Both the position numbers and the translations under genes were made by a program. The notes beneath the pieces are model-generated. The model was not told the DNA's origin, ran no database searches, and saw nothing but the letters and a program-made list of their open reading frames with translations. This document shows, in pieces, positions 11,807 through 51,393 of a stretch of DNA of 64,000 nucleotides. Source of the stretch: Escherichia phage vB_vPM_PD06. Within the stretch, counting starts at the first letter, position 1, and the number at the start of each line of letters is the position of its first letter. The DNA lies in the sequence record NC_052653.1. One strand, 5' to 3'.

Positions 11807-11824
11807 AAAGCTCCTAGTTGAATT

Positions 11825-12325: not shown

Positions 12326-12356
12326 ATATAGGAGATGCATAGCATCTCCTTTTAAA

Positions 12357-12432
12357 TGGTGGTTCCCCAGGGTTACAATCCCTGCCCTCGACACTTATGA
12401 GGTGTGCGCTCTCGTCAGTGAGCTATGGAACC
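12357..12432 (-). tRNA. tRNA with CAT anticodon (Met or Ile2), non-canonical T-loop
   Basis: D-arm GCTC-ACTGACGA-GAGC, anticodon loop CTCATAA, T-arm CAGGG-ATTGTAA-CCCTG, acceptor GGTTCCA/GGGAACC, CCA encoded. Confidence 0.65.
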
Positions 12433-13179: not shown

Positions 13180-14913
13180 TTAGTCAACCTGGATGGTTCC
13201 CATAGTACGAAGAACCTCTACATCAACACGGTTGCGGATATCAGTGAATGTTTCATCACGACCTTCTACTTGTGGTGTAATAACCTTACCATTCTTGAAG
13301 ATAACTTGTAACTCATTGTCTTCATCCTGGATATCTTTAAAAGAAAGATTATCTACAAGAGAAAGATTACCATTGGTATCATTAACAACCTTAATAAAAC
13401 CTTTTGCAGAGCGTTTACCAGGATCAGTTTTAGGCTCCTTACTTACCAAAATTTCGTGTTCACCGATGATACTACCTGTTGCTTTAACAGCAAAACCAAA
13501 AGTATCTCGTGTATTGAACTGATAAGTATAACTACCAACACCAAATACAATATTGGAAGCTGCAAAACCTTTCTTCTTCAGTCGGCGTAAGATCTCGTGT
13601 TCTCGTTCAACAGTAATAGAATCACCATAAATCATACCGATATGCTGATCAAGAACCTTGTAGCCTTTTCGGTTGATAGTACCACCAAACACTTCCCAAA
13701 GGATTTGAATAGAACCTACTGCTTCACAATAAGGAATCTCATAAGTTTCATCAATACAGTCAGCAACACTGCAATCCTGAAGAACATTGTAATACTTATT
13801 AACATCAGCCAAATGAACTACTTCAGTGGCTGTCGCAATACCATTATTTAAGAGGTCTTGATAGTTATCAAAAGATTCAACATTGTATCCTGCAACAACT
13901 TTAACCGGATCTCCTGAATCTGGACGAATAACAAGACGACCATTTCGTGACATAATGGAATCTTTCAATTCTACCAGAATGCGAGTCAATACAGCCCAAT
14001 AGTCATAAGAGTCTGCTACATATGAACAAAAACCTTCTGGAACAATTTCTTCGATATAACGACGAAGAAACTCTTTTTCTGCTACATAACGAAGCCCATC
14101 TACATCATCTTTAAGATGTGGGAAATGTTTCTTCAGATCTTCAACAATAGATCCAATGTTAGTCGTTGCTACTGAATGTTCTGTTGCCGGAATCGAACCT
14201 GCAACAAACTGATCATAATCAATACCATAATAGTCATGCACAGTTTCAATAGCCAGAATATTATCTGTTCCTGTGAACGATGCCAAGTGAGCGATACCAC
14301 TCTTATAACCATCTTCGATATTACTTAAACCACGTAGGCTAAAATCATGACACTGGAAGTTAACGTGATCAATATTATCACACGTTGCCATCGCATATGC
14401 CATAGCGATACGCTTATACTGAAAAGCTGCTGTGGCATTAGTCATTGTCTTCCAAGTTTCATCTGACAACAGTGTTTCCACATAGTTAGTTAACCAAAAG
14501 AATTTTTCTAAAGTATTATGCACAGTAAACACAGGAACACCAATAGGACACAAAACACCTTCTGGCAGAGATCGAACTTCCAGCGGAAGATAACCTAAAT
14601 CGTGCAATTCTCCCCAACATTCCGCAGAAGGAGCAGAAGCACCTAACGCATTTTTAGACATACGATAAAATTTATTTACTGCTGCACTACGAGACATTTT
14701 AAAGAAGCTATCCCACATAGTTACAAGAGCATCAGTGACTGCTCGACGAATACCTAAAACAATCACACCACGTGCTTCACGATCTGCATAGTGTGCAAAG
14801 TTTTTATCATTACGAGGAGTTAAATTAGAGAAAATAAGTTTTGTATTTTGGTTGTACATCTGCTTGTGACCAGGTTTGTACCAATCAGTAGCAAAAGGTG
14901 CAAAAATATTCAT
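13180..14913 (-). CDS. nadV: Nicotinamide phosphoribosyltransferase (NAMPT)
   Basis: 577 aa; N-terminal MNIFAPFATDWYKPGHKQMY and overall length typical of NAMPT family. Confidence 0.85.
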   Translation of the reverse strand: MNIFAPFATDWYKPGHKQMYNQNTKLIFSNLTPRNDKNFAHYADREARGVIVLGIRRAVTDALVTMWDSFFKMSRSAAVNKFYRMSKNALGASAPSAECWGELHDLGYLPLEVRSLPEGVLCPIGVPVFTVHNTLEKFFWLTNYVETLLSDETWKTMTNATAAFQYKRIAMAYAMATCDNIDHVNFQCHDFSLRGLSNIEDGYKSGIAHLASFTGTDNILAIETVHDYYGIDYDQFVAGSIPATEHSVATTNIGSIVEDLKKHFPHLKDDVDGLRYVAEKEFLRRYIEEIVPEGFCSYVADSYDYWAVLTRILVELKDSIMSRNGRLVIRPDSGDPVKVVAGYNVESFDNYQDLLNNGIATATEVVHLADVNKYYNVLQDCSVADCIDETYEIPYCEAVGSIQILWEVFGGTINRKGYKVLDQHIGMIYGDSITVEREHEILRRLKKKGFAASNIVFGVGSYTYQFNTRDTFGFAVKATGSIIGEHEILVSKEPKTDPGKRSAKGFIKVVNDTNGNLSLVDNLSFKDIQDEDNELQVIFKNGKVITPQVEGRDETFTDIRNRVDVEVLRTMGTIQVD

Positions 14914-14984
14914 AGTTATGTCTCCTTGTTTGTTAATGTGGGAGTATCTTACTAAGCATACTCCCTATTGTCAACACTTATTAT

Positions 14985-15878
14985 TTAAAAATTCCACACG
15001 TATGGAGATACAATTTGTTGTTGCAAATCTGACTGATTCTTAACAAGAACACCAGAATCTTCTTGGATGTTATCTTCCCACACATTAAGAGAATGAATGC
15101 AGTCAAAGTGCTCACTTAACTCTTTAAGACCTTTAGAAAAGATACCGTGTGTAACATATAGCTCAATCTTACCTGCGTTACGAGCACGTAGCACTTTAGC
15201 CAATTCGATAAAAGTTCTACCACCATCACAGATATCATCTACGATCATCAGGTTACGCTTATTGAAATCCTGTACAGAAATGTCTGTACGAACAATAGCA
15301 CCTGTTGCGGTATCTCTAACCTTCTCTGCACAGAACACATCTAAAGACATTTTCTTAGATAATTTAAATATTTTCTTAAGAGCACCACCATCAGGGCTAA
15401 CAAGAGCAAAATTCTCCATACGTAACTTCCACTTTAAAGTTTCGTAAGCAATCTCTTCTTGAGGCATTACACAGAGTCTGTCAAACACTGCTGGAGTAAC
15501 ATCACTATGCGGATCAGCAACGATAACACGTGAGAAATTTAATGAATTAATTATAGAAGCAAATGCTTTAACTCCGAATGCTTCCCCAGGCTCACACACT
15601 CTGTCTTGTCGTGCATACGGCACATACAACATGAGTAAATCAACACAATATGGTTTATGATATAGCATATTGTCCAATGCATTCTTAGTCATAACCAAAG
15701 TCATCAAGTCTTTAGCAGATCTTACTTCTAAAGTGAGTAAGATTCTGTCTGTAGCATGATTGAAACCTGATAGATTCGTATCTAATTGAACATGTTGTTC
15801 TCCACCAGAGAATGTAAACACTTTAACGTCTACATCAGTAACATAACAGTCAACACCATGCAGAATACTAACTTTCAT
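14985..15878 (-). CDS. prs: Ribose-phosphate pyrophosphokinase (PRPP synthetase)-like
   Basis: YARQDR motif, SPDGG, and PRPP-binding loop MIVDDICDGGRT. Confidence 0.8.
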   Translation of the reverse strand: MKVSILHGVDCYVTDVDVKVFTFSGGEQHVQLDTNLSGFNHATDRILLTLEVRSAKDLMTLVMTKNALDNMLYHKPYCVDLLMLYVPYARQDRVCEPGEAFGVKAFASIINSLNFSRVIVADPHSDVTPAVFDRLCVMPQEEIAYETLKWKLRMENFALVSPDGGALKKIFKLSKKMSLDVFCAEKVRDTATGAIVRTDISVQDFNKRNLMIVDDICDGGRTFIELAKVLRARNAGKIELYVTHGIFSKGLKELSEHFDCIHSLNVWEDNIQEDSGVLVKNQSDLQQQIVSPYVWNF

Positions 15879-15879
15879 T

Positions 15880-16298
15880 CTTTATCTCCTTAGTTGCGTT
15901 AGGACTTTATGTTCTCTACTCTACATACAGATAGATCTAAAGTCAATAGATATTTATTATTTAATTAATAATAAAATTAATAAATAATTAATAAATAATC
16001 TATTGTTAGTATAGAGCATGTATGTTAGTATTATAGATATAACATAGTGCTATATGTAGACTACTCAGTTGTCTGTTAGATCATGTATCACAAGATTAGA
16101 TAACACCCCCTCGCTGCGCTCGGCGTTTTTCGGGGGTTAGGGTAGCATACTTTTTTGCGTTTGTCAACACCTTTTTGGATTATTTTTAAGTACAACCTGA
16201 ACCTCCTAAAAACGATTGTAACGAGTTTTACTGTGAGGTAAGGTGATTGCATATCTTAGAGGCTATTAGCTCGTTACAGAGCCATACAGGAGGGAATA
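15880..16298. promoter_or_regulatory. Divergent intergenic control region
   Basis: 419-bp non-coding gap between diverging gene blocks; 50-bp pure A/T tract with reiterated TAATTAATAA units (15951-16000) and a GC-rich hairpin near 16105-16135. Confidence 0.45.
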
Positions 16299-16667
16299 AT
16301 GAGGGTCACACGTTACGTTAGAAGTGAAACAATAGATGGAGGCATAATGTATGCTTTCTACGATGATAAAACTTTTTGTTCTGCATTCTATGAAGAAGAC
16401 TTGTCTACGGAATGGCAACAAATCATCTTCTTACTTGACATTTTGAAAAGAAGAGATAACTTTGAAGGTATTGAGTGGACAGTGGGAGGCAAAGTTATCG
16501 TTGCAGGTTTAAGCAAACATGAGTTGCTTGACTTAGACTGTAAACTTTGTAATTATCAATTCTCAAAACGTTTACCATTAGAAAGACAGTTAGGAGTTGA
16601 GATTCATGTTGACTTGGGCGATGGAGTATCCTATACTCTCAACAATCATAGTGCTGACGTTAATTAG
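16299..16667 (+). CDS. Hypothetical protein
   Basis: 122-aa ORF, first gene of plus-strand block, GGAGGG upstream. Confidence 0.5.
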   Translation: MRVTRYVRSETIDGGIMYAFYDDKTFCSAFYEEDLSTEWQQIIFLLDILKRRDNFEGIEWTVGGKVIVAGLSKHELLDLDCKLCNYQFSKRLPLERQLGVEIHVDLGDGVSYTLNNHSADVN

Positions 16668-16733
16668 TGGGATCACAAAGTGCGTAACAAGCATTTGCGA
16701 TTGTTTAACACATTTTAAACAAAGGAAAAATAA

Positions 16734-16931
16734 ATGAATCAAACTATGCAAACAATCTATAGAGTAATCCTTGGTGAGTTCCATGTTGTTAAGTCAACAT
16801 TGAATTATGAAGAAGCTAAAGAGAATTTCTTGCTATGGGTTGAAGCATTCTCTGAAGTTGAAAAGGTAAGTTACAATTGTGTAACTTTAACTGCTGATCA
16901 CGTACCTGTATTGGAGTTTATTAAGAAATGA
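16734..16931 (+). CDS. Hypothetical protein
   Basis: 65-aa ORF in compact co-directional array. Confidence 0.45.
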   Translation: MNQTMQTIYRVILGEFHVVKSTLNYEEAKENFLLWVEAFSEVEKVSYNCVTLTADHVPVLEFIKK

Positions 16932-17167
16932 AAAAAGAAATTTTAACTGATGTAACATATTCTTGTATTAGCAAAGGCGGTTTATATCGTGTAGTTGGCT
17001 TTCCTAAACCAGCGGGTGTATCTAAAGTATTTGATCCTGTTGTGATCTACGAAGATGTAAGGACTGGTCAACAGTATTGGCGATTCCAGCAAGATTTCTT
17101 ACACCGCATGGAGGTTGTTGATGGCGAAAACACCGAAGAAGCGATCCGTAACAAAGCGCGCATCTAA
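16928..17167 (+). CDS. Hypothetical protein
   Basis: 79-aa ORF overlapping upstream stop (ATGA). Confidence 0.45.
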   Translation: MKKEILTDVTYSCISKGGLYRVVGFPKPAGVSKVFDPVVIYEDVRTGQQYWRFQQDFLHRMEVVDGENTEEAIRNKARI

Positions 17168-17456
17168 AGATGGGGCGGCAAAAGCCGCTCCTAAGAAACA
17201 AAAATTTGACACAGAGGCTTTTGTCTTTGATACTCCAATAGAAAAGATAGAAGAAGCTCTTGCTAAATTTGAAGAACGGGATGCAGATCCTATGGCAGAT
17301 CCTTTCACAGAAGATGAATTGTACTGGTTTGGCTGGTGGGTTTTGAATCTACCAGAAGCTAAAAAACGAGGAATGAAGTCAGTTCCTATTTGCGCAAAAG
17401 AATCGGCTGTGTTAGGTTTATACGAGAAGCCTAAAAGAAGGAGCAAAAAGAAATGA
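17121..17456 (+). CDS. Highly basic Lys/Ala-rich protein (possible DNA-binding protein)
   Basis: ATG at 17121 with GGAGG 6 nt upstream; N-terminus MAKTPKKRSVTKRASKDGAAKAAPKKQK, C-terminus KPKRRSKKK. Confidence 0.45.
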   Translation: MAKTPKKRSVTKRASKDGAAKAAPKKQKFDTEAFVFDTPIEKIEEALAKFEERDADPMADPFTEDELYWFGWWVLNLPEAKKRGMKSVPICAKESAVLGLYEKPKRRSKKK

Positions 17457-17731
17457 GAAAAACTTATCTGAAGTGTTTGTCTGTTGTGCAAAATGAATGG
17501 TATTCAGGTTTGCTGACAGCAGGTAAGAAATATGAAGTGCTCAATAAACCAGGGGCAAGATTTTCATTAATTAAGAACGACAAAGGCACTGAAATGCTTA
17601 TTTCAGTTGCAGATTCTATGTATGGTACTTTTGAGTTGGTCTATGAATATGTACCAATTATTCTTGAATACAGCGGTACAAACAAACCTTACACAGCTTT
17701 AGATGTGATCAACAACAAAAGGAATAAGTAA
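17453..17731 (+). CDS. Hypothetical protein
   Basis: 92-aa ORF, start overlaps upstream stop. Confidence 0.5.
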   Translation: MRKTYLKCLSVVQNEWYSGLLTAGKKYEVLNKPGARFSLIKNDKGTEMLISVADSMYGTFELVYEYVPIILEYSGTNKPYTALDVINNKRNK

Positions 17732-17922
17732 TGTTCCTTATTTATTCAGGTAAAGCCAAATACATGCAAGGTGTGAAGCGTGTAAAAGTAGTAGATACTG
17801 TAACTATAGGAAAATCCTTTATTCTTTATTTGTTTTATATCAATGGAGAAAGATTTGCTGTTTCTAAGAAGTTGGTAGATAATGGTAAAACTTGGAAAGA
17901 AGAGAAACAGGAAGGGGGTTGA
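17731..17922 (+). CDS. Hypothetical protein
   Basis: 63-aa ORF. Confidence 0.4.
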   Translation: MFLIYSGKAKYMQGVKRVKVVDTVTIGKSFILYLFYINGERFAVSKKLVDNGKTWKEEKQEGG

Positions 17923-17924
17923 TA

Positions 17925-18266
17925 GTGGCTAAAATTCTTTGGTTAGACGATTTAAGAGATCCTAAAGATTATGGTTATGAGGATGCCATTTGGTTAAAAT
18001 CTTTTGAGGATTGGTTATCTTTTGTTTCAGATGAAGATAATTTCAATAATATCTCAGAGATACACTTCGATAATGATCTTGGAGAAGATCAAGAAGGATA
18101 TCATGCGTTCTTAGACGTAGAATGTATGTTGTACGCGGGTGAATGGGATGCTCTTAAAACTATCTATGTTCATACATCAAATCCTTCTGCTGCTGGTAAA
18201 TATATGTTAGCCAAGGAAAATTTTATTTCATCCTATGGTGTTGAAATTAAACGTGTTAACTATTAA
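17925..18266 (+). CDS. Hypothetical protein
   Basis: GTG start preceded by GGAAGGGGG; about 113 aa. Confidence 0.45.
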   Translation: MAKILWLDDLRDPKDYGYEDAIWLKSFEDWLSFVSDEDNFNNISEIHFDNDLGEDQEGYHAFLDVECMLYAGEWDALKTIYVHTSNPSAAGKYMLAKENFISSYGVEIKRVNY

Positions 18267-18421
18267 GGAGGTGTTATGCTTTATGTTATTTGGGTAGATG
18301 AAGGGGATGGGTTTTATATATACAAACACACTAACCATTGGCCCGATGTAGAAAAAGCACTTGCAACTTTTGAAGATTGCTTTTACGATATACATACAGA
18401 CGAAGAGTATGTAGAAAATTG

Positions 18422-18781
18422 ATGTGCGCTACTAATCAACATGATATTTGTTACCAACCTCTTACTTGGATTGGTGAGGATCACTATGCTCAACGTGTTA
18501 TAGTCTGCGCTGCGAATAAGTATATTCTCAACAATGGCGAAGAGTTAATTATTCCTTGTGTTAGGCATGCAAATCCTGTACTATCTGCACAACTTAATGT
18601 TTTAAAAGATGCAGGATTGATCGATAAACTGTTTTGCTTACCTGATAATCAAGGGTTTATTGATCAATATTATAATTGGTGGAGTCGCAAAGATGCTTAT
18701 ATCATTGCAGATAACGCCAAACAAATTAACTATGAAAGAAATGGTCACGACAGTGAACTATTCAGCGAGGGATTATACTAA
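18422..18781 (+). CDS. Hypothetical protein
   Basis: ATG at 18422 (MCATNQHD...), about 119 aa. Confidence 0.45.
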   Translation: MCATNQHDICYQPLTWIGEDHYAQRVIVCAANKYILNNGEELIIPCVRHANPVLSAQLNVLKDAGLIDKLFCLPDNQGFIDQYYNWWSRKDAYIIADNAKQINYERNGHDSELFSEGLY

Positions 18782-19332
18782 TGTTTATTACAAGTGATTT
18801 GCATTTTATGCACAAACGTATTCGAGAGTTTGCTCCTGAATATCGCCCGTGGGAAGATATGGAGCATATGACAGAAGCACTGATTGAAGCATGGAATAAA
18901 TGTGCTACGAGTCCTGGTGTCAAGATGTGGCATTTGGGCGACTTCTGTTTCGGGACTGAAGAAGATACCCGTAAAATTGCTTCACGTCTTCAAGGTGATA
19001 TCACTTACTGTGTTGGGAACCATGATTACAGCAAACACCGAGAAGTGCTTGCAGAATATGGCGAGGTGGTGTATTATGACGAAGTGAAATATCAGAAACT
19101 GTTCTTCGTCTTAAGTCATTACCCTATGGCTGCTTGGAATAAACAAGGGCATGGATCAATCATGCTACACGGGCACTCTCACGGATCATTCCCTGATCAT
19201 TTGTATGGGAAAATGTTGGATGTTGGTTGGGATGCACACGGAAAAATCTTGCATTTTGACGAAATCATCTCTATTATGGATAAGCGTGATATTGTTGTTG
19301 TAGACCATCATAAGATAATCAAAGGAGATTAA
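18781..19332 (+). CDS. Calcineurin-like metallophosphoesterase
   Basis: Motifs SDLHFMH, GDFCFG, GNHD, then His-rich HGHSHG. Confidence 0.7.
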   Translation: MFITSDLHFMHKRIREFAPEYRPWEDMEHMTEALIEAWNKCATSPGVKMWHLGDFCFGTEEDTRKIASRLQGDITYCVGNHDYSKHREVLAEYGEVVYYDEVKYQKLFFVLSHYPMAAWNKQGHGSIMLHGHSHGSFPDHLYGKMLDVGWDAHGKILHFDEIISIMDKRDIVVVDHHKIIKGD

Positions 19333-19333
19333 G

Positions 19334-20266
19334 GTGGCTAAGTTCAATTGTGATGACCTGATTGCAAAAGGTTTAGTGCATAAAAAAGAAGTTAAATCTG
19401 GAGAGTATGCTGGTCTTGCTGTACTTAAATACAAAAACAATGTATTCTGGGATAACTTGTGGAACGTTGACAAACGACTCCTAGATTGTCGTGGGTTGGT
19501 TGTTGACTCAGAAGACAATGTTGTTATCTGGCCTTTTACTAAAATCTTTAATCGTTTTGAGAATGGTACAGATCTTCCAGCAGACCAGCTTGTAGATGCT
19601 GTCCGTAAAGTAAACGGTTTTATGGCATCTGTAGGTGTGTACAAAGGGCAACTTATTGTATCAACAACAGGGAGCCTAGAGTCAGATTTTGCAACTCTTG
19701 CCAAGAACCATATTGTTTCCGAGTGTGATGACATAGAATATTTCATTAAGTGGACAGAAAGTGCAAAAGCAACTTTCCTTTTTGAAATCTGTGATCCTTC
19801 TGATCCACATATTGTCGAAGAAGAACCAGGCGCATACTTAATTGGAGCAAGAATTCAAAATCTTGATGGGACAAGTTTCATGCTACCCGAAGGTGTGCTT
19901 GATGGGATTGCATCTATTACAAAATTTAAACGTCCTGAAGTTTATCCGATGATTAAATTTTCAGATGTTGTTGAAATGTCTAAACATTGTAAGCACGAAG
20001 GGTTTGTTGTTCGGGAAACAAACTATCCGTTTAACTTGCTGTTAAAGATTAAGTCACCATATTATCTTGCTAAGAAATTCCTTATGCGTGGTGGCAATAA
20101 GAAGTGGGATATGATTTGGGACAACCCAAAAAATGCTAAACAAATTGTTGACGAAGAATATTATACTTTGCTAGAATGGCTTCGAAACAACTTTACTAAG
20201 ACTCAATGGGCTGCTTTAGATCCACAAGAGCGACGTAAAGAAATAGAAAACTTCTTTGGAGGCTAA
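19334..20266 (+). CDS. Polynucleotide ligase, RNA-ligase-like
   Basis: Nucleotidyltransferase motifs: I VRKVNGF (KxNG), IV HEGFVVRE, V LLKIKSPYY; GTG start with GGAG upstream. Confidence 0.6.
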   Translation: MAKFNCDDLIAKGLVHKKEVKSGEYAGLAVLKYKNNVFWDNLWNVDKRLLDCRGLVVDSEDNVVIWPFTKIFNRFENGTDLPADQLVDAVRKVNGFMASVGVYKGQLIVSTTGSLESDFATLAKNHIVSECDDIEYFIKWTESAKATFLFEICDPSDPHIVEEEPGAYLIGARIQNLDGTSFMLPEGVLDGIASITKFKRPEVYPMIKFSDVVEMSKHCKHEGFVVRETNYPFNLLLKIKSPYYLAKKFLMRGGNKKWDMIWDNPKNAKQIVDEEYYTLLEWLRNNFTKTQWAALDPQERRKEIENFFGG

Positions 20267-20671
20267 ATGAAACAACTTATCATTTTACGTGGTGTTTCAG
20301 GTGCAGGTAAATCTACAGTAGCAGAAATTATTTCTGAAGGTTATTGGCCTATCTGTGAGGCAGATCAATATCATTACACAGAAAGTGGTGTTTACGATTG
20401 GAAGCCAGAGAATGTAGGTAAAGCACACGCATGGTGTCAGAGTATTGTTCGTGATGCTATGGTATCTAATATTAAAAAGATTATTGTCTCTAACACTTCA
20501 ACCACAGAGAAAGAACTTAAACCTTATTTAACTCTTGCTGAAGAGTTTGGTTATCAAGTTATCTCCTTAGTTGTTGAAAATAGGCACGGTAACGACTCAA
20601 TTCATGAGGTTCCACAACATACTCGTGATCAGCAAGAGAAACGTCTTCGCAGTTCACTTAAGCTACAATAA
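20267..20671 (+). CDS. P-loop kinase, polynucleotide-kinase-like
   Basis: Walker A GVSGAGKST near N-terminus; 134 aa; start abuts ligase stop. Confidence 0.6.
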   Translation: MKQLIILRGVSGAGKSTVAEIISEGYWPICEADQYHYTESGVYDWKPENVGKAHAWCQSIVRDAMVSNIKKIIVSNTSTTEKELKPYLTLAEEFGYQVISLVVENRHGNDSIHEVPQHTRDQQEKRLRSSLKLQ

Positions 20672-20680
20672 GGAGAGTGT

Positions 20681-21001
20681 ATGGAAATTTATTCTGGTGA
20701 AGGTAAGTATTTTACAGTAGTCGATAATGGTGAAATTATTATTTATCGCTACGGAAGTGAGTGGAGGAACGAGACAGGAGACGGTTATATCTTATCTTTG
20801 CTCCGTTTGATTAATGATCTTACGGAAGAACTTGAAGAAACAAAACGTTCATATGATGATCAAGTAGATTCATTAGAAAACATTATTTCAGATCTAAATG
20901 AAGAAGTTTGTTATTTGAGTGGACAAGTTTCAGAGTTAACACTGGAATGTGAAGATTTAGGTGATGTTATTGCAGATTTAAATGAACGTCTTAAGGATTA
21001 A
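20681..21001 (+). CDS. Hypothetical protein
   Basis: 106-aa ORF, acidic C-terminal half. Confidence 0.45.
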   Translation: MEIYSGEGKYFTVVDNGEIIIYRYGSEWRNETGDGYILSLLRLINDLTEELEETKRSYDDQVDSLENIISDLNEEVCYLSGQVSELTLECEDLGDVIADLNERLKD

Positions 21002-21004
21002 TAT

Positions 21005-21229
21005 ATGAGTACAGCTATCTATGTTAAAGGTGTAAGCGAAGATCAACAAATGTTATTCTCATTTGGTGAGAATACTGAAATGGAAGATATGTTTAATGAT
21101 ATCCTTGATGCCCTTTCTTCGGAAGGGTTCACAATGATTACATACTTTATGGCAACATCTTCTGAATACGTTGATACAGATCTTGAAGACTTGATGGAAG
21201 AGATTCAAACTCTTGTGTATAATTGGTAA
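21005..21229 (+). CDS. Hypothetical acidic protein
   Basis: 74-aa ORF. Confidence 0.45.
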   Translation: MSTAIYVKGVSEDQQMLFSFGENTEMEDMFNDILDALSSEGFTMITYFMATSSEYVDTDLEDLMEEIQTLVYNW

Positions 21230-21426
21230 GGGTAACTATGACATTTATTGAAGAACTAACGAGAATTGCAAACGCACCTAACAGTAGCGAAGATCCTTAC
21301 TTTATGGTGGATGATTACACTGGTGGTAATATTGATGATGCCTATGAACTAGGCAGACTACACGGTGAAATTGAAATGGCTAAATGGGTTCTTTCGCAAC
21401 TGGAGGTTAAAGATGAAACAAACTAA
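21223..21426 (+). CDS. Hypothetical protein
   Basis: 67-aa ORF. Confidence 0.4.
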   Translation: MVRVTMTFIEELTRIANAPNSSEDPYFMVDDYTGGNIDDAYELGRLHGEIEMAKWVLSQLEVKDETN

Positions 21427-22528
21427 TCCTACACTATATGGTAAAACTTCTACAGGTAAAATTAAACAGTGGTCAGTCTATACCGAAGGTAGTGTTGTAA
21501 CTGTTGCTCATGGTCAATTAGGTGGAAAGATTACTAGCAAATCTTATACAGCAGAACCTAAAAATATTGGTCGCTCAAATGAAACAACAGCAGAAGAACA
21601 AGCTGAAATAGAAGCTCTTGCCAAATGGACAAAGCAACTTAAGAATGGGTATTATAAAACAAAAGAGGAAGCTGAAAACCATGTTCCTTCCACACCCATG
21701 AAATGTCAGGATTATAAAGATTATGCTGATCGTGTTTTGTTCCCAGGTTATGCACAGTATAAATTGAATGGTCTACGTTCAATGATTAACATGCAAGGTG
21801 AATGTTTATCTAAAGCTGGGGAAGTATATAAACTTCCACCTCACTGGAAAGAAATTCCAACCTTCATTAAAGAAGTAGTTGGTCATCCTCTTGATGGTGA
21901 AGTTTTTGCTGGTTTGGGTGTTCTTAGCCTTCAGCAAATTAATAGTGCGTGGAAAAAGCATAATGCTAACACTCCGCTTCTTAAATACTATGTATATGAT
22001 GTTCCTGTGCCATCTGTACCATTTGAGAAGAGGGTTGAAGTTTTGGCTGCTCTAAAAGAAGTTGTTGAAGATAAAGGTTTAGATGAACTTATTTGTGTAG
22101 TGCATACAGAGTACATTGAAAACCAAGAGCAGTTTGATGAATTCTATGCAAAAGCTCTGCGTGAGAAAGCGGAAGGTGTGGTGTATCGTAATGCACAAGG
22201 TGTTTACGAGTTTGATAAACGTTCTTATGATGTTATTAAACGTAAACCACGGCAGACGCTTGAAGTTAAGGTGGTAAGTGCAAAACGTGATAAAAATGGT
22301 GACGGGGTATTGACAGGCGAGATGGAAAATGGTAAAGTAGTCGAATTCCTGATGCGTAAGGATTCAGATGAAACCATTAACTATCGTAAAGCAGAAAATG
22401 CCGAAATGTTAATTGGTAAATTTGTTGAGATTGAGTATGAAGAGTTTTCCGATGGTGGAATACCTACTAAACCAACAGGTGTACGTGTACGTAAGATGAT
22501 TCCAGGTACTTGGGAACCAGCAGAATAA
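21413..22528 (+). CDS. ATP-dependent polynucleotide ligase (DNA or RNA ligase)
   Basis: ATG at 21413 with GGAGG upstream; motifs I YKLNGLR, III HPLDGEVF, IV AEGVVYRN, V VIKRKP, then OB-like tail. Confidence 0.6.
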   Translation: MKQTNPTLYGKTSTGKIKQWSVYTEGSVVTVAHGQLGGKITSKSYTAEPKNIGRSNETTAEEQAEIEALAKWTKQLKNGYYKTKEEAENHVPSTPMKCQDYKDYADRVLFPGYAQYKLNGLRSMINMQGECLSKAGEVYKLPPHWKEIPTFIKEVVGHPLDGEVFAGLGVLSLQQINSAWKKHNANTPLLKYYVYDVPVPSVPFEKRVEVLAALKEVVEDKGLDELICVVHTEYIENQEQFDEFYAKALREKAEGVVYRNAQGVYEFDKRSYDVIKRKPRQTLEVKVVSAKRDKNGDGVLTGEMENGKVVEFLMRKDSDETINYRKAENAEMLIGKFVEIEYEEFSDGGIPTKPTGVRVRKMIPGTWEPAE

Positions 22529-22537
22529 GAGGTAAAT

Positions 22538-22716
22538 ATGGTATTAGCAACAGTTCTTATGATGTTAATTGCTATTGCAATTATAATGTTAGCCTCGTTT
22601 CCAGTGAACAAATGGTACTGCAATTTTTGTAGATTTGTTGTTTTCCTCTGTGCTGGGGCGTATATGGGCGAATCGGTAGTTCGCATTAGTGTTTTGTTAG
22701 AACAATATTTTAAATA
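22538..22716 (+). CDS. Small membrane protein
   Basis: 59-aa ORF with GAGG upstream; hydrophobic MVLATVLMMLIAIAIIMLASF. Confidence 0.35.
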
Positions 22717-22726
22717 AGGAGAAACA

Positions 22727-23449
22727 ATGATCGAGAATTTTTTCAAACAAGTAAAAGTGGACAATAGCTTCTTTATCAAAGCTGCCGATCAAATTGTTGC
22801 TTGGAATGCTAAGGCACGTGGTGGCGTAACTCCAGAGTTTACTCAAGAGATGTTTGAAGCTCAACTTTCTTTTGTACGAGAAGAACTAAAAGAGTTCCAA
22901 GCAGCAGCACAGGAAAATGATCACGTTGAATTACTTGATGCAGCAGCAGATATTTTTGTGGTAGCATCCTATCTGGCGTTTATGTTCTTTGGTAAAGAAG
23001 GTGTTGATAAAGCTCTGGAAATGCCGACAGGAGATGTTCTGGCAGAAAACATCTACGATGTTATCATTGAATTTGATAAAATGGTAGAAAATGACTTGCA
23101 ATTTGCCCTAATGTCTCTTACACTTACACGTATGGCACGAGATACTTTGGTGCGTTCTGTTTATAACGAGAAGAAGGTTATGCGTGAAGTGTTGAATAGC
23201 AATGAGTCCAAGTATCCTACCAAGAAGCAACTCCTGGCTATTTGGGAAACTAAGGATATTGTTGAAGCTCTTGAAAAAGAGTGTGATGCTATCGAGATGA
23301 GAAGCAAAGATCGTGCAGAAGGTTCTTATACTGGAGTACATGCTGTATATAACGAAGTTCAAAAGGTATACGTATTCTTTGATGACAAAGGTAAAATTAT
23401 GAAGCCATCTACCTTTGTTAAACCTAATATCGCAGCAATCATTGCTTAA
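22727..23449 (+). CDS. MazG-like all-alpha NTP pyrophosphohydrolase (tentative)
   Basis: Acidic helix pattern EELKEFQAAAQENDHVELLDAAADIF. Confidence 0.4.
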   Translation: MIENFFKQVKVDNSFFIKAADQIVAWNAKARGGVTPEFTQEMFEAQLSFVREELKEFQAAAQENDHVELLDAAADIFVVASYLAFMFFGKEGVDKALEMPTGDVLAENIYDVIIEFDKMVENDLQFALMSLTLTRMARDTLVRSVYNEKKVMREVLNSNESKYPTKKQLLAIWETKDIVEALEKECDAIEMRSKDRAEGSYTGVHAVYNEVQKVYVFFDDKGKIMKPSTFVKPNIAAIIA

Positions 23450-23455
23450 GAAATA

Positions 23456-23478
23456 AAGCCCCTTCGGGGGCTTATTGG
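23456..23478 (+). terminator. Rho-independent terminator (weak U-tract)
   Basis: AAGCCCC-TTCG-GGGGCTT hairpin right after stop. Confidence 0.5.
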
Positions 23479-23485
23479 AGGTATT

Positions 23486-23764
23486 ATGTTAACAGCAGAA
23501 GATATCTTTAAACACGGTTTGCGTCAGGTAATCAAATCCTTGAAGAATGCAGGTATTGAAGATATCACACAGGAAATTGTTGGTTTAGAAAAAGAAGGTA
23601 AGAGAACAGAATTTAAGTTTTACACAGAAGAACAGTGGTTGAGTAATCCGCAAAACAAAGCTAATGAGGCTGTTAGTCTGTTTGGTAAATCTTATAAAGG
23701 ATTTAAATATCCTGATCATATTGTCGAATATGATGGTGTAAAATATTTTGTAGTTGTTATTTGA
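23486..23764 (+). CDS. Hypothetical protein
   Basis: 92-aa ORF with GGAGG upstream. Confidence 0.45.
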   Translation: MLTAEDIFKHGLRQVIKSLKNAGIEDITQEIVGLEKEGKRTEFKFYTEEQWLSNPQNKANEAVSLFGKSYKGFKYPDHIVEYDGVKYFVVVI

Positions 23765-23774
23765 GGAGAAAATT

Positions 23775-24659
23775 ATGTTTGCTAAAAATTTCAAATCTTG
23801 CGTAACCCTGATTTCTGGTGATGGTCTGTCTATTTCAGCACTGAACACAGTAACAGACAAACCGCTGGATTTTGTTGTGGCACAGGGGCAACAAGCACAT
23901 ACCATTGGTCTTGTTCGTTTTGAAGATGATGGTTCCTATGTAAAAGTGTTCTCTGGTTTAGAGGTTATTAAAGTAGGGCAGTCTGTTAAGAAAGTTAACA
24001 AGAAGAAAGTTAAACGCATTCTTAATGAAAAACTCCAGGAGATGGAACAAGAGTTTATTACTGCAAATCCTACTAAAGAGTTCTTCTTGGACAAAGAAAG
24101 CAAAAAAGCAATTGAGGCTGATATTGTGTTTTCTCTGCTCCCAGAAACAGAGGCAGATGATTTCTATAACTATGTTGTTGTAGACACTGAAAACAGTATT
24201 ACCTATGTTCTTAATGGTACTAAGAAAATTAGTGAAGATATTGCTGTATTTCTTCGTGAGGTGTTGGGTACTTTCCCAGTTCTGCCGTTTAGTGTACACG
24301 AAGAAGCCATTATTAAAGGTTTTGATACCATCTTAGAAGAACATGAAGCTGAACGACTGACCCTGGGTAATTATATTAAACTTGAAGATTCGGAAGGTGT
24401 GGTTGTATGGAGTAAAGAGTCCCTTTATGAATCTCGTGCAGTAGAACTTATGGAAGATGGTAAGCACGTTGTTGCCATTGGCCTGGAATATGACGGCTTC
24501 GTTAACTTTATTGTTGATAAAGAATTTAAGTTGAGTGGTATTAAATTCCCTAAATACTTTAATGATGAAGAAGGATCTTTTGAAGCATCTGTCCTTCTGT
24601 GCTTTAACGAAATCCGTGGTATTATGCAAGACCTTATCAAGTCAACTATTCAAAAATAA
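23775..24659 (+). CDS. Hypothetical protein
   Basis: ATG at 23775 (MFAKNF...) with GAGGAG upstream; about 294 aa. Confidence 0.5.
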   Translation: MFAKNFKSCVTLISGDGLSISALNTVTDKPLDFVVAQGQQAHTIGLVRFEDDGSYVKVFSGLEVIKVGQSVKKVNKKKVKRILNEKLQEMEQEFITANPTKEFFLDKESKKAIEADIVFSLLPETEADDFYNYVVVDTENSITYVLNGTKKISEDIAVFLREVLGTFPVLPFSVHEEAIIKGFDTILEEHEAERLTLGNYIKLEDSEGVVVWSKESLYESRAVELMEDGKHVVAIGLEYDGFVNFIVDKEFKLSGIKFPKYFNDEEGSFEASVLLCFNEIRGIMQDLIKSTIQK

Positions 24660-24662
24660 TAC

Positions 24663-24692
24663 TTGACTTACTAATTTAATATGTGTTAATAT
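24663..24692 (+). promoter_or_regulatory. Sigma70-like promoter candidate
   Basis: TTGACT, 17-nt spacer, TTAATA/TAATAT. Confidence 0.4.
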
Positions 24693-24719
24693 GCCTACCT
24701 ACTTAGTTAGGTGGGCTTT
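24693..24719 (+). terminator. Hairpin plus U-tract (terminator or attenuator)
   Basis: CCTACCTA-CTTAGT-TAGGTGGG followed by CTTTT. Confidence 0.5.
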
Positions 24720-24733
24720 TAAGGAGACACACC

Positions 24734-24946
24734 ATGAAAAAACTTCTTGTCGGTTTACTTCTAGTAATCAGTTCTTATTCTTATGCTGGTCAAATAACTT
24801 TAATTAATTCTGGAGAACAAGTTTCTGGAAGTACAAAATACTGTTTTTACTCTAACGGTATGTACGACAAGGTTATAGAGGTTTCTGCAAGTCGTCAGTG
24901 TCCCTACACACGAACATTCTCAACAGAGAGTTCAGATGATGAATAG
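24734..24946 (+). CDS. Small secreted protein
   Basis: N-terminal signal peptide MKKLLVGLLLVISSYSYAG; 70 aa; two Cys; acidic C-terminus. Confidence 0.5.
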   Translation: MKKLLVGLLLVISSYSYAGQITLINSGEQVSGSTKYCFYSNGMYDKVIEVSASRQCPYTRTFSTESSDDE

Positions 24947-25038
24947 GAGGTAATATTAGCGGTTACATTTTAATCCAACCGGAAGACCTGCACAAATATG
25001 TTGACGAGAACACAATTCTTGCAATAGACTACGATCAA

Positions 25039-50580: not shown

Positions 50581-51393
50581 ATGCGAAGAGTAATTTTTGT
50601 TAGTGGCGCAGGTTTAAGTGCAGACAGTGGGATTCGAACGTTCCGAACAGACACAGATAGTGGTCGTGCCTTATGGGAAGAATATGACTTAGAAGAGGTC
50701 TGCGATATTGGAGCTTTCCAAGCAGGTTATCGTGTGAGAACATCTCCAGATCTTCCAGTGGTCGGTGGTGTAGACGAGAACGGTATGGACTTATATGCCA
50801 AAACACACGAATTTTATAACAAAAGACGTGTTGAGCTTAAAGATGTACAACCTAATGCTGCACATATTCAAATAGCAAAGTGGTTTAAGGAATATCCTAA
50901 CCAAGTAGTAAACTTGACAACAAACGTCGATGATCTACTAGAGCGAGCAGGTGTGGACAGGGATTCTGTTATTCACGTGCACGGGTATCTCCCTGAAGTA
51001 GTTTACCGTATGCATCCTGGAGATTACAAAACACTGGTAGACATTGGTTACAATAGTATAAACATAGATGATTATAACTGGGTGAAGCCTAATGTTGTAT
51101 TTTTTGGTGAGGCTGCACCTTTGTATGCAGATATGGCTCACTTGTTTGATACTTTGACCATGCAAGATTTGGTTGTTGTAGTAGGATGTTCAAACCAAGT
51201 TATCAATTTTAATTGGGAATTATTCCCTGCACTTACTATGGGTACAAAAATGATTGTTGTTAACCCAGGAATTAATTACGAAGAAACTCTTCTTTACGAA
51301 GATAGAGGAGTCTTTGTTTATAGAGAAAAGGCAGCAGATGCTTTTAGCAATCCTGCTTTCATAAAAATGATAGAAGATCATTTGACTAAGTAA
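50581..51393 (+). CDS. Sir2 (sirtuin) family NAD+-dependent enzyme
   Basis: VIFVSGAGLSADSGIRTFR, TTNVDDLLERAG, HVHG, VVFFGE, VVVVGCS; no CxxC zinc module seen. Confidence 0.8.
   Translation: MRRVIFVSGAGLSADSGIRTFRTDTDSGRALWEEYDLEEVCDIGAFQAGYRVRTSPDLPVVGGVDENGMDLYAKTHEFYNKRRVELKDVQPNAAHIQIAKWFKEYPNQVVNLTTNVDDLLERAGVDRDSVIHVHGYLPEVVYRMHPGDYKTLVDIGYNSINIDDYNWVKPNVVFFGEAAPLYADMAHLFDTLTMQDLVVVVGCSNQVINFNWELFPALTMGTKMIVVNPGINYEETLLYEDRGVFVYREKAADAFSNPAFIKMIEDHLTK

What the first reader, a model, noticed from the sequence alone, without database searches (positions are those of the whole stretch)
18781..22528. Split Pnkp-like RNA-repair cassette (metallophosphoesterase, ligase, P-loop kinase) plus a second ligase
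Three abutting genes encode a calcineurin-type phosphoesterase (18781-19332), a ligase with KxNG, EGFVV and KIK motifs (19334-20266) and a small P-loop kinase (20267-20671). These are the three activities needed to heal and seal 2',3'-cyclic-phosphate/5'-OH RNA breaks, here as separate polypeptides rather than one fused enzyme. A second ligase follows at 21413-22528. With the large tRNA array, this suggests a counter-defence against host anticodon nucleases or other RNA-cleaving toxins.
Basis: partly seen in the sequence, partly recalled or inferred. Interest (0 to 1): 0.75.

Follow-up and report, generated by a model that had tools for sequence, protein, structure and literature searches.

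The report
Phage tRNA/RNA heal-and-seal gene cassette
A known E. coli phage carries three adjacent genes (phosphoesterase, T4-type RNA ligase, small polynucleotide kinase) that most likely mend RNAs cut by host defence nucleases; the module is real, but it is already annotated and has been described computationally, though never tested biochemically.

Summary
The window is a Justusliebigvirus (phAPEC8/phi92-like E. coli myophage), 99.5% identical to vB_EcoM_PHB05. All four ORFs exist exactly as described.

- **18781-19332:** a complete calcineurin-type metallophosphoesterase of the aq_1665 (PDB 1XM7) clade. It is not in the lambda-phosphatase/CthPnkp clade.
- **19334-20266:** a short Rnl1-family RNA ligase. 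It passes the Pfam PF09511 threshold, all catalytic motifs align to T4 Rnl1, and its closest folds are T4 Rnl1 and fungal Trl1.
- **20267-20671:** a minimal P-loop kinase whose closest solved relatives are the RNA-repair polynucleotide kinases Pnkp1, CthPnkp and T4 Pnk.
- **21413-22528:** an ordinary ATP-dependent DNA ligase of the replication block.

Ligase and kinase occur together in about 600 phage genomes. The trio stays linked through rearrangements in several lineages. The phosphoesterase family is also found fused to an Rnl2-like ligase and to an RNA-repair HAD domain.

The same gene set was described for rV5-type phages by Iyer et al. 2022.

RNA heal-and-seal counter-defence is therefore well supported in silico. 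'Split Pnkp' is an analogy, not a statement of ancestry. Novelty is low and no activity has been demonstrated.

The parts
17925..18266 (+). cREC (cyclic-phosphate-processing receiver-like) protein; predicted metal-independent 2',3'-cyclic phosphodiesterase
   Evidence: Pfam PF20274 cREC_REC, E = 3e-14, 53.9 bits against a cut-off of 27. It has the acidic WLDD and FDNDLG motifs. Start as annotated in NC_052652. It is 47% identical to the gene next to the RNA ligase in Vequintavirus 'nomo'.
18276..18422 (+). 48-aa acidic ORF of unknown function
   Evidence: Annotated as a CDS in relatives. No family hit. pI 4.1.
18422..18781 (+). conserved phage protein (phrog_839 / PF26092) of unknown function, start/stop-overlapped with the phosphoesterase gene
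18781..19332 (+). metallophosphoesterase of the aq_1665 clade; inferred RNA 3'-end healing enzyme (2',3'-cyclic phosphate / 3'-phosphate removal)
   Evidence: phrog_547, E = 4.6e-55. The family profile hits PDB 1XM7 at 1.2e-23 and gives no lambda-phosphatase or CthPnkp hit. D6, H8, D54, N80, H81, H113, H132 and H134 are invariant. Relatives are fused to an RNA ligase domain or to a HAD_SAK_2 domain.
19334..20266 (+). short (310 aa) Rnl1-family ATP-dependent RNA ligase
   Evidence: PF09511, 52.9 bits against a cut-off of 28.3. The profile hits T4 Rnl1 2C5U at 5.5e-10 with motifs I, III, IV and V and R54/K75/F77 aligned. AlphaFold2 pLDDT 90.9. Foldseek top hits are T4 Rnl1 (1.8e-13) and fungal Trl1 ligase domains.
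20267..20671 (+). minimal (134 aa) P-loop kinase; inferred polynucleotide 5'-OH kinase
   Evidence: AAA_33, E = 2.5e-9. phrog_2071 at 6e-58 and phrog_505 'polynucleotide kinase' at 1e-8. The profile's best PDB hits are Pnkp1 4XRP (2.4e-6), CthPnkp kinase 4GP7 (9e-5) and T4 Pnk 1LY1 (3.8e-4). K15, D33, R106 and other residues are invariant.
20681..21426 (+). three small, very acidic ORFs (106, 74 and 62 aa) of unknown function between the kinase and the DNA ligase
   Evidence: phrog_18076, phrog_16431 and phrog_24346. pI 4.0-4.2. No informative Pfam hit.
21413..22528 (+). ATP-dependent DNA ligase (the 'second ligase'); a neighbour, part of the replication/recombination block
   Evidence: PF01068, E = 4e-11. 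phrog_114, E = 1e-75. NCBIfam PRK09125 DNA ligase, E = 1.5e-18. PDB hits are ASFV DNA ligase 6IMJ and LigE-type 4D05 at 2e-7.
22727..23449 (+). MazG-type nucleotide pyrophosphohydrolase; a recurrent neighbour of the cassette
   Evidence: PF01503, E = 3e-7. phrog_671, E = 6e-28. A MazG gene also follows the cassette in L004 and in rV5-type 'nomo'. It is named as part of the rV5 neighbourhood in PMC9503650.
9377..12432 (-). array of 15 tRNA genes (context)
   Evidence: ARAGORN.
13180..15878 (-). Prs-like + Nampt-like two-gene operon with NARP1-like (Adps + Namat) architecture, divergent from the repair block (context)
   Evidence: PF14572/PF00156 and PF04095. The architecture is as described for NARP1. 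The same pair lies next to the ligase-kinase pair in PAK_P1.
50581..51393 (+). Sir2-family protein, homologue of the sirtuin that is linked to Rnl1/cREC in rV5-type phages; unlinked here (context)
   Evidence: PF02146, E = 1.3e-22. 48% identity to the 'nomo' Sir2.

Best explanation
The block 17925-20671 is a phage-encoded RNA (most likely tRNA) break-repair module made of separate small enzymes. It is functionally analogous to the T4 Pnkp + Rnl1 pathway.

All mechanistic steps below are inferred. [quoted passage not shown] The cREC protein, the aq_1665-type metallophosphoesterase, or both open the cyclic phosphate and remove the resulting phosphate to give a 3'-OH. The 134-aa P-loop kinase phosphorylates the 5'-OH. 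The short Rnl1-type ligase is adenylylated on K92 and seals 3'-OH to 5'-PO4.

The module lies in an early-gene block beside other likely counter-defence functions, namely the 15-tRNA array and an NARP1-like NAD+ reconstitution pair. The downstream ATP-dependent DNA ligase belongs to the replication/recombination genes and is not part of the repair module.

What is shown here: family membership, catalytic-residue conservation, fold, linkage and co-occurrence. What is inferred: substrates, the order of steps, and which host nuclease is countered.
For: - **Ligase.** PF09511 is above threshold. The profile hits T4 Rnl1 at 5.5e-10 with R53, K70, F72, K92, G95, E151, E222, G223, K238 and K240 aligned to T4 R54, K75, F77, K99, G102, E159, E227, G228, K240 and K242. 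The model is confident, and its best structural matches are T4 Rnl1 and Trl1 ligase domains, ahead of Rnl3, Rnl2 and DNA ligases.
- **Kinase.** The best solved relatives are polynucleotide kinases from RNA-repair systems. The P-loop, the candidate general-base Asp33 and Arg106 are invariant.
- **Phosphoesterase.** The metal-ligand motif set is complete and invariant. Relatives are fused to an Rnl2-like ligase (P0262) or carry an inserted 'Swiss-army-knife' RNA-repair HAD domain (P0286, P0295).
- **cREC.** A cREC gene lies upstream.
- **Linkage.** The phosphoesterase-ligase-kinase trio is retained at 37-56% identity in a 130-kb metagenomic phage (with a Thg1-like gene nearby), in phiK7A1-like contigs, in PAK_P1, and in rearranged, divergent orientation in rV5-type 'nomo'.
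- **Co-occurrence.** Ligase and kinase have almost identical distributions over 50,697 phage records: 663 against 618 records, with matching counts per genus.
- **Operon-like packing.** Genes overlap or lie 0-9 nt apart from cREC through MazG.
- **Literature.** The same neighbourhood was predicted to be an RNA-repair system in rV5-type phages (PMC9503650) and in Pakpunavirus (PMC12846349).
Against: - No biochemical or genetic data exist for any member of these three protein clades. Literature searches found none.
- The kinase-to-Pnk similarity is modest (E = 1e-4 to 1e-6). T4 Pnk Arg38 and Asp85 appear to be replaced by His36 and Asn76. This rests on my reading of the alignment and on T4 residue numbers recalled from memory.
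- The phosphoesterase is not in the clade with demonstrated RNA 2',3'-phosphoesterase activity. Its family also occurs in many phages that lack this ligase.
- The ligase has only about 65 residues after motif V, against about 120 in T4 Rnl1, so tRNA specificity cannot be assumed. T4 Lys119 aligns with an invariant Thr112.
- Several of the phage lineages that share the synteny are evolutionarily related, so part of the linkage may be inherited rather than selected.
Confidence: 0.75

Rival explanations
1. NAD+/nucleotide-signal processing island. cREC and the metallophosphoesterase mainly hydrolyse small molecules (ADP-ribose cyclic phosphates, cyclic nucleotide immune signals), and the kinase is a nucleotide or ADP-ribose kinase. 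They would act with the neighbouring NARP1-like genes. Only the ligase would touch RNA, if anything does.
For: The cassette repeatedly lies next to Prs-like and Nampt-like genes, Macro genes and NadR/PnuC-type genes. cREC is predicted to act on either RNA cyclic ends or ADPr>p. The phosphoesterase family is much wider than the ligase family (1321 against 663 records). Its nearest characterised structural relatives beyond aq_1665 are the diesterases GpdQ and ApaH.
Against: Kinase and RNA ligase co-occur almost one-to-one. The kinase's closest solved relatives are polynucleotide kinases. The phosphoesterase is fused to RNA ligase and to RNA-repair HAD domains.
Confidence: 0.1
2. DNA-end processing. 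The kinase and phosphoesterase would clean 5'-OH and 3'-phosphate DNA ends for the adjacent ATP-dependent DNA ligase during replication, recombination or repair of restriction damage.
For: The cassette lies immediately upstream of a DNA ligase, an RdgC-like protein, a 5'-exonuclease and polymerase genes. A DNA ligase is also nearby in L004-L007. T4 Pnkp also acts on DNA (established knowledge).
Against: An Rnl1-type RNA ligase sits between the two healing enzymes and travels with the kinase across lineages. In PAK_P1 the DNA ligase is about 4 kb away, with unrelated genes in between. The cREC gene and the RNA-repair fusions point to RNA.
Confidence: 0.07
3. Housekeeping RNA processing or a structural moonlighting role. 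The ligase would serve maturation or splicing of the phage's own tRNAs or mRNAs. Alternatively, like T4 gp63, it would promote tail-fibre attachment, as the PHROG label suggests.
For: The PHROG and GenBank label reads 'RNA ligase and tail fiber protein attachment catalyst'. The phage encodes 15 tRNAs.
Against: The label is inherited from T4 gp63 and has not been tested. The gene lies in an early, non-structural block far from tail genes. Nothing suggests split or intron-containing tRNA genes in the ARAGORN output.
Confidence: 0.05

Closest known systems
Phage T4 tRNA repair pathway (Pnkp + Rnl1) that counters the PrrC anticodon nuclease
   Same: Same ligase family, with all nucleotidyltransferase motifs and the Rnl1-specific R54/K75/F77 equivalents and the same fold. 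A related P-loop 5'-kinase domain (T4 Pnk 1LY1, E = 3.8e-4). The same logic of healing both ends and then sealing.
   Different: The kinase is a stand-alone 134-aa protein with no fused HAD (DxDxT) 3'-phosphatase. 3'-healing is assigned instead to a metallophosphoesterase plus a cREC protein. The ligase is 310 aa, with about half of T4 Rnl1's C-terminal domain. No activity or target nuclease is known.
rV5/Mydo-type cREC + T4-like tRNA ligase + nucleotide kinase + MazG (+ calcineurin-like phosphoesterase) + sirtuin neighbourhood, predicted by Iyer et al. 2022 (PMC9503650, section 3.7.3)
   Same: Homologues of cREC (47%), phosphoesterase (37%), ligase (47%), kinase (43%), MazG and DNA ligase are all present. 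This is the same predicted function.
   Different: Here the genes are collinear in the order cREC, PF26092, phosphoesterase, ligase, kinase. In 'nomo' the kinase and phosphoesterase are divergent from the ligase and cREC. The sirtuin that defines the published system is not in the neighbourhood here. Its homologue lies 30 kb away at 50581-51393. A PF26092 gene is inserted.
Bacterial Pnkp/Hen1 (Clostridium thermocellum) and Pnkp1-Rnl-Hen1 (Capnocytophaga) RNA repair systems
   Same: The same three chemistries: a P-loop kinase, a binuclear metallophosphoesterase and an ATP-dependent ligase. The kinase's best PDB matches are Pnkp1 and CthPnkp.
   Different: The genes are not fused. The phosphoesterase is in a different clade. 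The ligase is Rnl1-type rather than the Pnkp ligase domain. No Hen1-like methyltransferase was seen among the ORFs scanned.
Aquifex aeolicus aq_1665 (PDB 1XM7), a structural-genomics metallophosphoesterase of unknown function
   Same: It is the closest solved relative of the cassette phosphoesterase: E = 1.2e-23 with the family profile and 1.9e-6 with the single sequence.
   Different: aq_1665 has no assigned substrate, so it gives no functional information.
Pakpunavirus (PAK_P1/Adele) polynucleotide kinase + RNA ligase next to NARP1
   Same: Homologous phosphoesterase (37%), ligase (39%) and kinase (48%). It has been interpreted in print as tRNA repair in which the kinase lacks a 3'-phosphatase domain.
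   Different: In PAK_P1 three genes, including one for an HTH protein, separate the phosphoesterase from the ligase. The Prs-like/Nampt-like pair follows directly downstream instead of lying divergently upstream. No cREC was detected by BLAST.

Membership tests
Rnl1 family of ATP-dependent RNA ligases (T4 Rnl1 / Trl1 ligase domain; Pfam PF09511) | Sequence match to the family model above the curated threshold | tested here: met
   PF09511, 52.9 bits against a gathering score of 28.3, E = 5.7e-14. The profile of 26 homologues hits T4 Rnl1 2C5U at E = 5.5e-10.
Rnl1 family of ATP-dependent RNA ligases (T4 Rnl1 / Trl1 ligase domain; Pfam PF09511) | Covalent nucleotidyltransferase motifs I (KxxG lysine nucleophile), III, IV and V, plus the Rnl1-specific upstream Arg/Lys/Phe | tested here: met
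   K92/G95, E151, E222/G223 and K238/K240, together with R53, K70 and F72, are invariant in the family. They align to T4 K99/G102, E159, E227/G228, K240/K242, R54, K75 and F77. T4 K119 aligns to an invariant T112, which is a difference.
Rnl1 family of ATP-dependent RNA ligases (T4 Rnl1 / Trl1 ligase domain; Pfam PF09511) | Rnl1-type fold | tested here: met
   AlphaFold2 model with pLDDT 90.9. Foldseek top hits are T4 Rnl1 5TT6, 2C5U and 9DO4 (about 1e-13; TM normalised to the query 0.60-0.66), followed by Trl1 ligase domains.
Rnl1 family of ATP-dependent RNA ligases (T4 Rnl1 / Trl1 ligase domain; Pfam PF09511) | T4-type C-terminal all-helical domain (about 120 aa) that confers tRNA specificity | tested here: inconclusive
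   Only about 65 helical residues follow motif V. Sequence alignment to T4 Rnl1 stops at motif V.
Rnl1 family of ATP-dependent RNA ligases (T4 Rnl1 / Trl1 ligase domain; Pfam PF09511) | ATP-dependent sealing of 3'-OH/5'-PO4 RNA ends | not testable with these tools
   Requires biochemistry.
Polynucleotide 5'-kinase (T4 Pnk / CthPnkp / Pnkp1 kinase domains) | P-loop kinase fold with a Walker A GxxGxGK(S/T) motif, a general-base Asp after strand 2, and a lid Arg | tested here: met
   G9-VSGAGKS16, D33 and R106 are invariant in 26 homologues. The profile hits 4XRP at 2.4e-6, 4GP7 at 9e-5 and 1LY1 at 3.8e-4, ahead of gluconate and adenylate kinases.
Polynucleotide 5'-kinase (T4 Pnk / CthPnkp / Pnkp1 kinase domains) | Phosphorylation of 5'-OH polynucleotide ends rather than mononucleotides | not testable with these tools
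   Sequence similarity is modest. His36 and Asn76 occupy positions that I recall as Arg38 and Asp85 in T4 Pnk.
T4-type bifunctional Pnkp | Kinase fused to a HAD (DxDxT) 3'-phosphatase domain | tested here: not met
   The protein is 134 aa and contains a kinase domain only.
Bacterial Pnkp (C. thermocellum type) / Pnkp-Hen1 system | Single polypeptide with kinase, metallophosphoesterase and ligase domains | tested here: not met
   Three separate ORFs, each with its own start and stop.
Bacterial Pnkp (C. thermocellum type) / Pnkp-Hen1 system | Phosphatase domain of the lambda-phosphatase clade | tested here: not met
   The phosphoesterase profile gives no hit to 4J6O or 1G5B at E <= 1. A different gene in the window (45361-46107) hits 1G5B at 3e-30 and 4J6O at 8e-4.
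Bacterial Pnkp (C. thermocellum type) / Pnkp-Hen1 system | Adjacent Hen1 RNA 2'-O-methyltransferase partner | tested here: not met
   No Hen1 or other methyltransferase domain was found in the 18 ORFs scanned between 16299 and 24659. The 59-aa ORF at 22538-22717 was not scanned.
cREC-centred phage RNA-repair neighbourhood of rV5 type (Iyer et al. 2022) | cREC gene linked to a T4-like RNA ligase, a nucleotide kinase and MazG, with an optional calcineurin-like phosphoesterase | tested here: met
   PF20274, PF09511, AAA_33, PF01503 and the metallophosphoesterase all lie within 17925-23449. They are homologous to the 'nomo' genes.
cREC-centred phage RNA-repair neighbourhood of rV5 type (Iyer et al. 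2022) | A sirtuin gene in the same neighbourhood (the published system is 'centred on' it) | tested here: not met
   No Sir2 domain lies between 16299 and 24659. The homologue is at 50581-51393, about 30 kb away.
Calcineurin-like metallophosphoesterase superfamily, aq_1665 clade | DxH...GD...GNH(D/E)...H...GHxH metal-ligand motifs and a match to 1XM7 | tested here: met
   D6, H8, G53, D54, G79, N80, H81, D82, H113, G131, H132 and H134 are invariant. 1XM7 is hit at E = 1.2e-23. Note that Pfam Metallophos_2 scores only 22.7 bits, below its cut-off of 27.

The most novel reading that the evidence does not exclude
The module may run a fungal/plant-type, NAD+-dependent repair route rather than the T4 route. 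In this reading, cREC opens the 2',3'-cyclic phosphate to give a 3'-OH and a 2'-PO4. The minimal Rnl1/Trl1-like ligase seals the break and leaves a 2'-PO4 at the junction. The phage sirtuin (50581-51393) removes that phosphate with NAD+, acting as a Tpt1/KptA analogue. The aq_1665-type phosphoesterase clears the ADP-ribose cyclic phosphate by-product, and the NARP1-like pair keeps NAD+ available. This would be a new bacterial-virus RNA repair chemistry and a new enzymatic role for both a sirtuin and a receiver-fold domain. It is essentially the untested proposal of Iyer et al. 2022. Here it is weakened because the sirtuin is unlinked from the cassette.
Probability: 0.12. Interest if true: 0.65.

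Novelty: new member of a known kind. Interest (0 to 1): 0.3.

Why it matters
If the module works as inferred, it is one of the commonest RNA-repair arrangements in large virulent phages of Enterobacteria, Pseudomonas, Vibrio and Acinetobacter. It occurs in about 600 of about 50,700 sequenced phage genomes. It uses healing enzymes (an aq_1665-type metallophosphoesterase, cREC and a 134-aa kinase) that have never been characterised.

The module sits beside a tRNA array and an NARP1-like NAD+ pathway. Together these would form a counter-defence island aimed at translation-targeting and NAD+-depleting immunity, which bears on host range in phage therapy candidates. Tractable relatives exist in the BASEL collection (Bas62), so the prediction can be tested directly.

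As a genome-scan finding it is not new. The genes are already annotated as RNA ligase/RNA repair, phosphoesterase and polynucleotide kinase, and the neighbourhood has been described computationally.

Tried and rejected
- **Single-sequence PDB searches.** The ligase gave nothing at E <= 1, and the kinase gave only P-loop noise. Family profiles were needed to get informative hits.
- **Promoter and terminator scan, 15800-25200.** Counts were no higher than in shuffled sequence, so operon boundaries could not be defined that way.
- **NCBIfam.** No useful names for the cassette proteins.
- **Sirtuin inside the cassette.** I looked for one, as in the published rV5 system, and found none. The homologue is 30 kb away.
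- **'Split Pnkp' by descent.** Rejected because the phosphoesterase and ligase clades differ from those of CthPnkp.
- **The second ligase as an RNA-repair component.** Rejected. It is a DNA ligase by Pfam, PHROG, NCBIfam and PDB similarity.
- **Literature.** Searches for experimental work on this cassette in phAPEC8, Bas63-type or Stephanstirmvirinae phages found nothing. Burroughs & Aravind 2016 (NAR) could not be retrieved.
- **The Herelleviridae link.** A phosphoesterase lies within 1 kb of an 'RNA ligase' in Listeria phage LMSP-25, but not within 3.5 kb in Staphylococcus phage ESa1. The phosphoesterase-ligase linkage is therefore not universal.

Full report
**Origin of the window.** A megablast of 17800-22600 finds 135 phage records. 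The best is Escherichia phage vB_EcoM_PHB05 at 99.5% identity over 100% of the query (NC_052652; Stephanstirmvirinae, Justusliebigvirus). The window is therefore a phAPEC8/phi92-like E. coli myophage. In public records the genes of the finding are already named 'phosphoesterase', 'RNA ligase' or 'putative RNA ligase/RNA repair', 'ATPase' or 'polynucleotide kinase', and 'ATP-dependent DNA ligase'.

**Check of the observation.** The ORF list confirms 18781-19332 (183 aa), 19334-20266 (310 aa, GTG start), 20267-20671 (134 aa) and the DNA ligase ORF, whose annotated start is 21413 (371 aa). The first three genes are separated by 1 and 0 nt. From 17925 to 23449 every junction is an overlap or a gap of at most 9 nt. 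The 15-tRNA array lies at 9377-12432 on the minus strand.

**The ligase.**
- Pfam RNA_lig_T4_1 (PF09511) is matched at 52.9 bits against a threshold of 28.3.
- A single-sequence PDB search found nothing. A profile of 26 homologues at 48-87% identity hits T4 Rnl1 (2C5U) at E = 5.5e-10.
- The alignment puts R53, K70, F72, K92, G95, E151, E222, G223, K238 and K240 opposite T4 R54, K75, F77, K99 (the adenylylation site, from established knowledge), G102, E159, E227, G228, K240 and K242. All of these are invariant in the family. T4 K119 aligns with an invariant Thr112.
- The AlphaFold2 model is confident (pLDDT 90.9). Its best Foldseek matches are T4 Rnl1 (1.8e-13) and fungal tRNA ligase Trl1 ligase domains. 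Archaeal Rnl3, Rnl2, NgrRnl and DNA ligases follow at progressively weaker scores.
- It is therefore an Rnl1-family RNA ligase. It is a short one, with only about 65 helical residues after motif V where T4 Rnl1 has about 120. T4-like tRNA specificity cannot be assumed.

**The kinase.**
- Pfam gives AAA_33 (2.5e-9). PHROG gives phrog_2071 'ATPase' (6e-58) and, weakly, phrog_505 'polynucleotide kinase'.
- A profile of 26 homologues ranks its PDB hits as follows: Capnocytophaga Pnkp1 (4XRP, 2.4e-6), two fungal P-loop kinases, C. thermocellum Pnkp kinase domain (4GP7, 9e-5) and T4 Pnk (1LY1, 3.8e-4). Gluconate, adenylate and nucleoside kinases come lower.
- The P-loop, Asp33 (in the position of the general base) and Arg106 are invariant.
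- This favours a polynucleotide 5'-kinase over a nucleotide kinase. The E-values are modest, and substrate specificity cannot be read from sequence.

**The phosphoesterase.**
- It has the full binuclear metallophosphoesterase motif set, which is invariant across 30 diverse relatives. It belongs to phrog_547.
- Its family profile hits only Aquifex aq_1665 (1XM7, 1.2e-23) strongly. GpdQ and ApaH come far behind, and neither lambda phosphatase nor the CthPnkp phosphatase domain appears at E <= 1.
- A different gene in the window (45361-46107) is the lambda-phosphatase homologue (1G5B, 3e-30; CthPnkp phosphatase 4J6O, 8e-4). The cassette enzyme is therefore not 'Pnkp-like' by descent.
- Its link to RNA repair comes from context. 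Among 11,121 representatives, one close relative (P0262, 55% identity) is fused to an Rnl2-like ligase domain with motif KIHGTNG. That domain is unrelated to the cassette's ligase.
- Two others (P0286, P0295) carry a 'Swiss-army-knife' RNA-repair HAD domain (PF18143).

- The ORF at 17925-18266 is a cREC_REC domain protein (PF20274, 3e-14). The authors who defined this family predict that it resolves 2',3'-cyclic phosphates in RNA-repair contexts (PMC7824862 and PMC9503650).
- Between it and the phosphoesterase lie a 48-aa ORF and a conserved 119-aa PF26092/phrog_839 protein of unknown fold.
- Downstream lie three very acidic small ORFs, the DNA ligase and a MazG pyrophosphohydrolase.

**Linkage and distribution.**
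- The phosphoesterase-ligase-kinase order recurs at 45-49% identity in a 130-kb metagenomic phage contig. That contig also has a Thg1-like gene upstream and DNA ligase plus MazG downstream.
- It recurs at 37-56% identity in phiK7A1-like contigs, where an HD-domain gene precedes the phosphoesterase and Prs-like, NAPRTase and Macro genes follow.
- In PAK_P1 the three genes are again present, followed by the Prs-like/Nampt-like pair.
- In rV5-type 'nomo' the kinase and phosphoesterase are divergent from ligase, cREC, Sir2 and MazG.
- Across 50,697 phage records the ligase is found in 663 and the kinase in 618, with nearly identical genus counts: Escherichia 196/195, Pseudomonas 175/173, Klebsiella 36/36, Acinetobacter 24/24.
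- The phosphoesterase family is broader, at 1321 records including Herelleviridae. It lies 1 kb from an RNA ligase in Listeria phage LMSP-25, but not near one in Staphylococcus phage ESa1.
- Some of these lineages are related to one another. Part of the synteny is therefore inherited, but linkage persists through rearrangement.

**The second ligase.** The gene at 21413-22528 matches DNA_ligase_A_M, phrog_114, NCBIfam PRK09125, ASFV DNA ligase and a LigE-type ligase. It precedes the RdgC-like, exonuclease and polymerase genes. It is the phage's DNA ligase, not a second RNA-repair ligase.

**Mechanism.** The best-supported reading (confidence about 0.75) is a heal-and-seal RNA repair module. cREC and/or the phosphoesterase convert 2',3'-cyclic-phosphate ends to 3'-OH, the kinase phosphorylates 5'-OH, and the Rnl1-type ligase seals. 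It would be deployed against host RNA-cleaving defences together with the tRNA array. Family membership, catalytic residues, fold, linkage and fusions are shown here. Substrates, the order of steps and the target nucleases are inferred. The rivals are small-molecule NAD+ or signal processing, DNA-end processing and housekeeping roles. They are less consistent with the near one-to-one kinase-ligase co-occurrence and with the RNA-repair fusions.

**Comparison with what is known.**
- Functionally this is the T4 Pnkp + Rnl1 pathway with the HAD phosphatase replaced.
- Compositionally it is the neighbourhood that Iyer et al. [quoted passage not shown]
- Here the sirtuin homologue (48% identity) is 30 kb away, at 50581-51393. 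That weakens the published NAD+-dependent model for this genus, though it does not exclude it.
- A 2025 Pakpunavirus paper also interprets the kinase-ligase pair as tRNA repair next to NARP1.
- I found no biochemical or genetic test of any of these proteins.

**Verdict.** The 'split Pnkp' framing is only an analogy, the cassette boundaries were too narrow, and the second ligase is unrelated to RNA repair. The module is a new member of an already recognised, still untested kind. Interest is modest (0.3). Its main value is as a directly testable counter-defence candidate in tractable BASEL-collection relatives.

Noticed in passing
window 13180-15878 (- strand): A Prs-like gene (14985-15878; PF14572/PF00156) followed by a Nampt-like gene (13180-14913; PF04095). 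This is the two-gene architecture of the NAD+ reconstitution pathway NARP1 (Adps + Namat). It is transcribed divergently from the repair block, and the same pair lies next to the ligase-kinase genes in PAK_P1. Clade membership (Adps versus a true Prs) was not tested.
   Followed up: partly
window 50581-51393 (+): A Sir2-family protein (PF02146, 1.3e-22), 48% identical to the sirtuin that lies directly beside Rnl1/cREC in rV5-type phages. Here it is about 30 kb from the cassette, at the end of the plus-strand gene block.
   Followed up: partly
window 45361-46107 (+): A second calcineurin-like phosphoesterase. It is a clear lambda Ser/Thr phosphatase homologue (1G5B, 3e-30) and matches the CthPnkp phosphatase domain weakly (4J6O, 8e-4). 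This is the clade with known 2',3'-cyclic phosphodiesterase activity, yet the gene lies outside the cassette.
   Followed up: partly
window 18422-18781 (+): A highly conserved 119-aa protein (phrog_839, precomputed PF26092; invariant CAANKY, PCVRH, QGFIDQY..WW.R.DA and LFSEGLY motifs) wedged between cREC and the phosphoesterase with overlapping stop and start codons. The model is confident, but there is no PDB fold match and only uncharacterised phage relatives. One GenBank record calls it 'putative anti-restriction nuclease', without visible support.
   Followed up: yes
window 20681-21426 (+) and 18276-18422 (+): Four small, strongly acidic ORFs (pI 4.0-4.2; one has 16 acidic and 1 basic residue in 74 aa) are interleaved with the repair genes. 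They are conserved as PHROGs of unknown function and could be protein inhibitors or DNA mimics.
   Followed up: no
L004 3854-4561; L005 3601-4119; L006 3441-3884 and 10607-11062: In distant relatives the same cassette is accompanied by a Thg1-like 3'-5' polymerase gene (tRNA 5'-end repair family), by an HD-domain gene directly upstream of the phosphoesterase, and by a Macro-domain gene. The Pfam HD matches are weak and below the curated thresholds. These look like variable accessory RNA- or ADP-ribose-processing parts.
   Followed up: partly
GenBank MG065639, MG065645, MG065656, MG065689 (hits H13-H16): Unannotated records named 'Campylobacter phage' (host C. jejuni) are 96.6% identical to this E. 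coli phage over the whole 4.8-kb query. This suggests a mislabelled host or contamination in those records.
   Followed up: no
window 23754-24659 (+) and 48260-49249 (+): An RdgC-like protein (PF04381, 2.4e-19) lies just downstream of MazG. A C5 cytosine DNA methyltransferase (PF00145, 1.3e-43) lies near the sirtuin.
   Followed up: no
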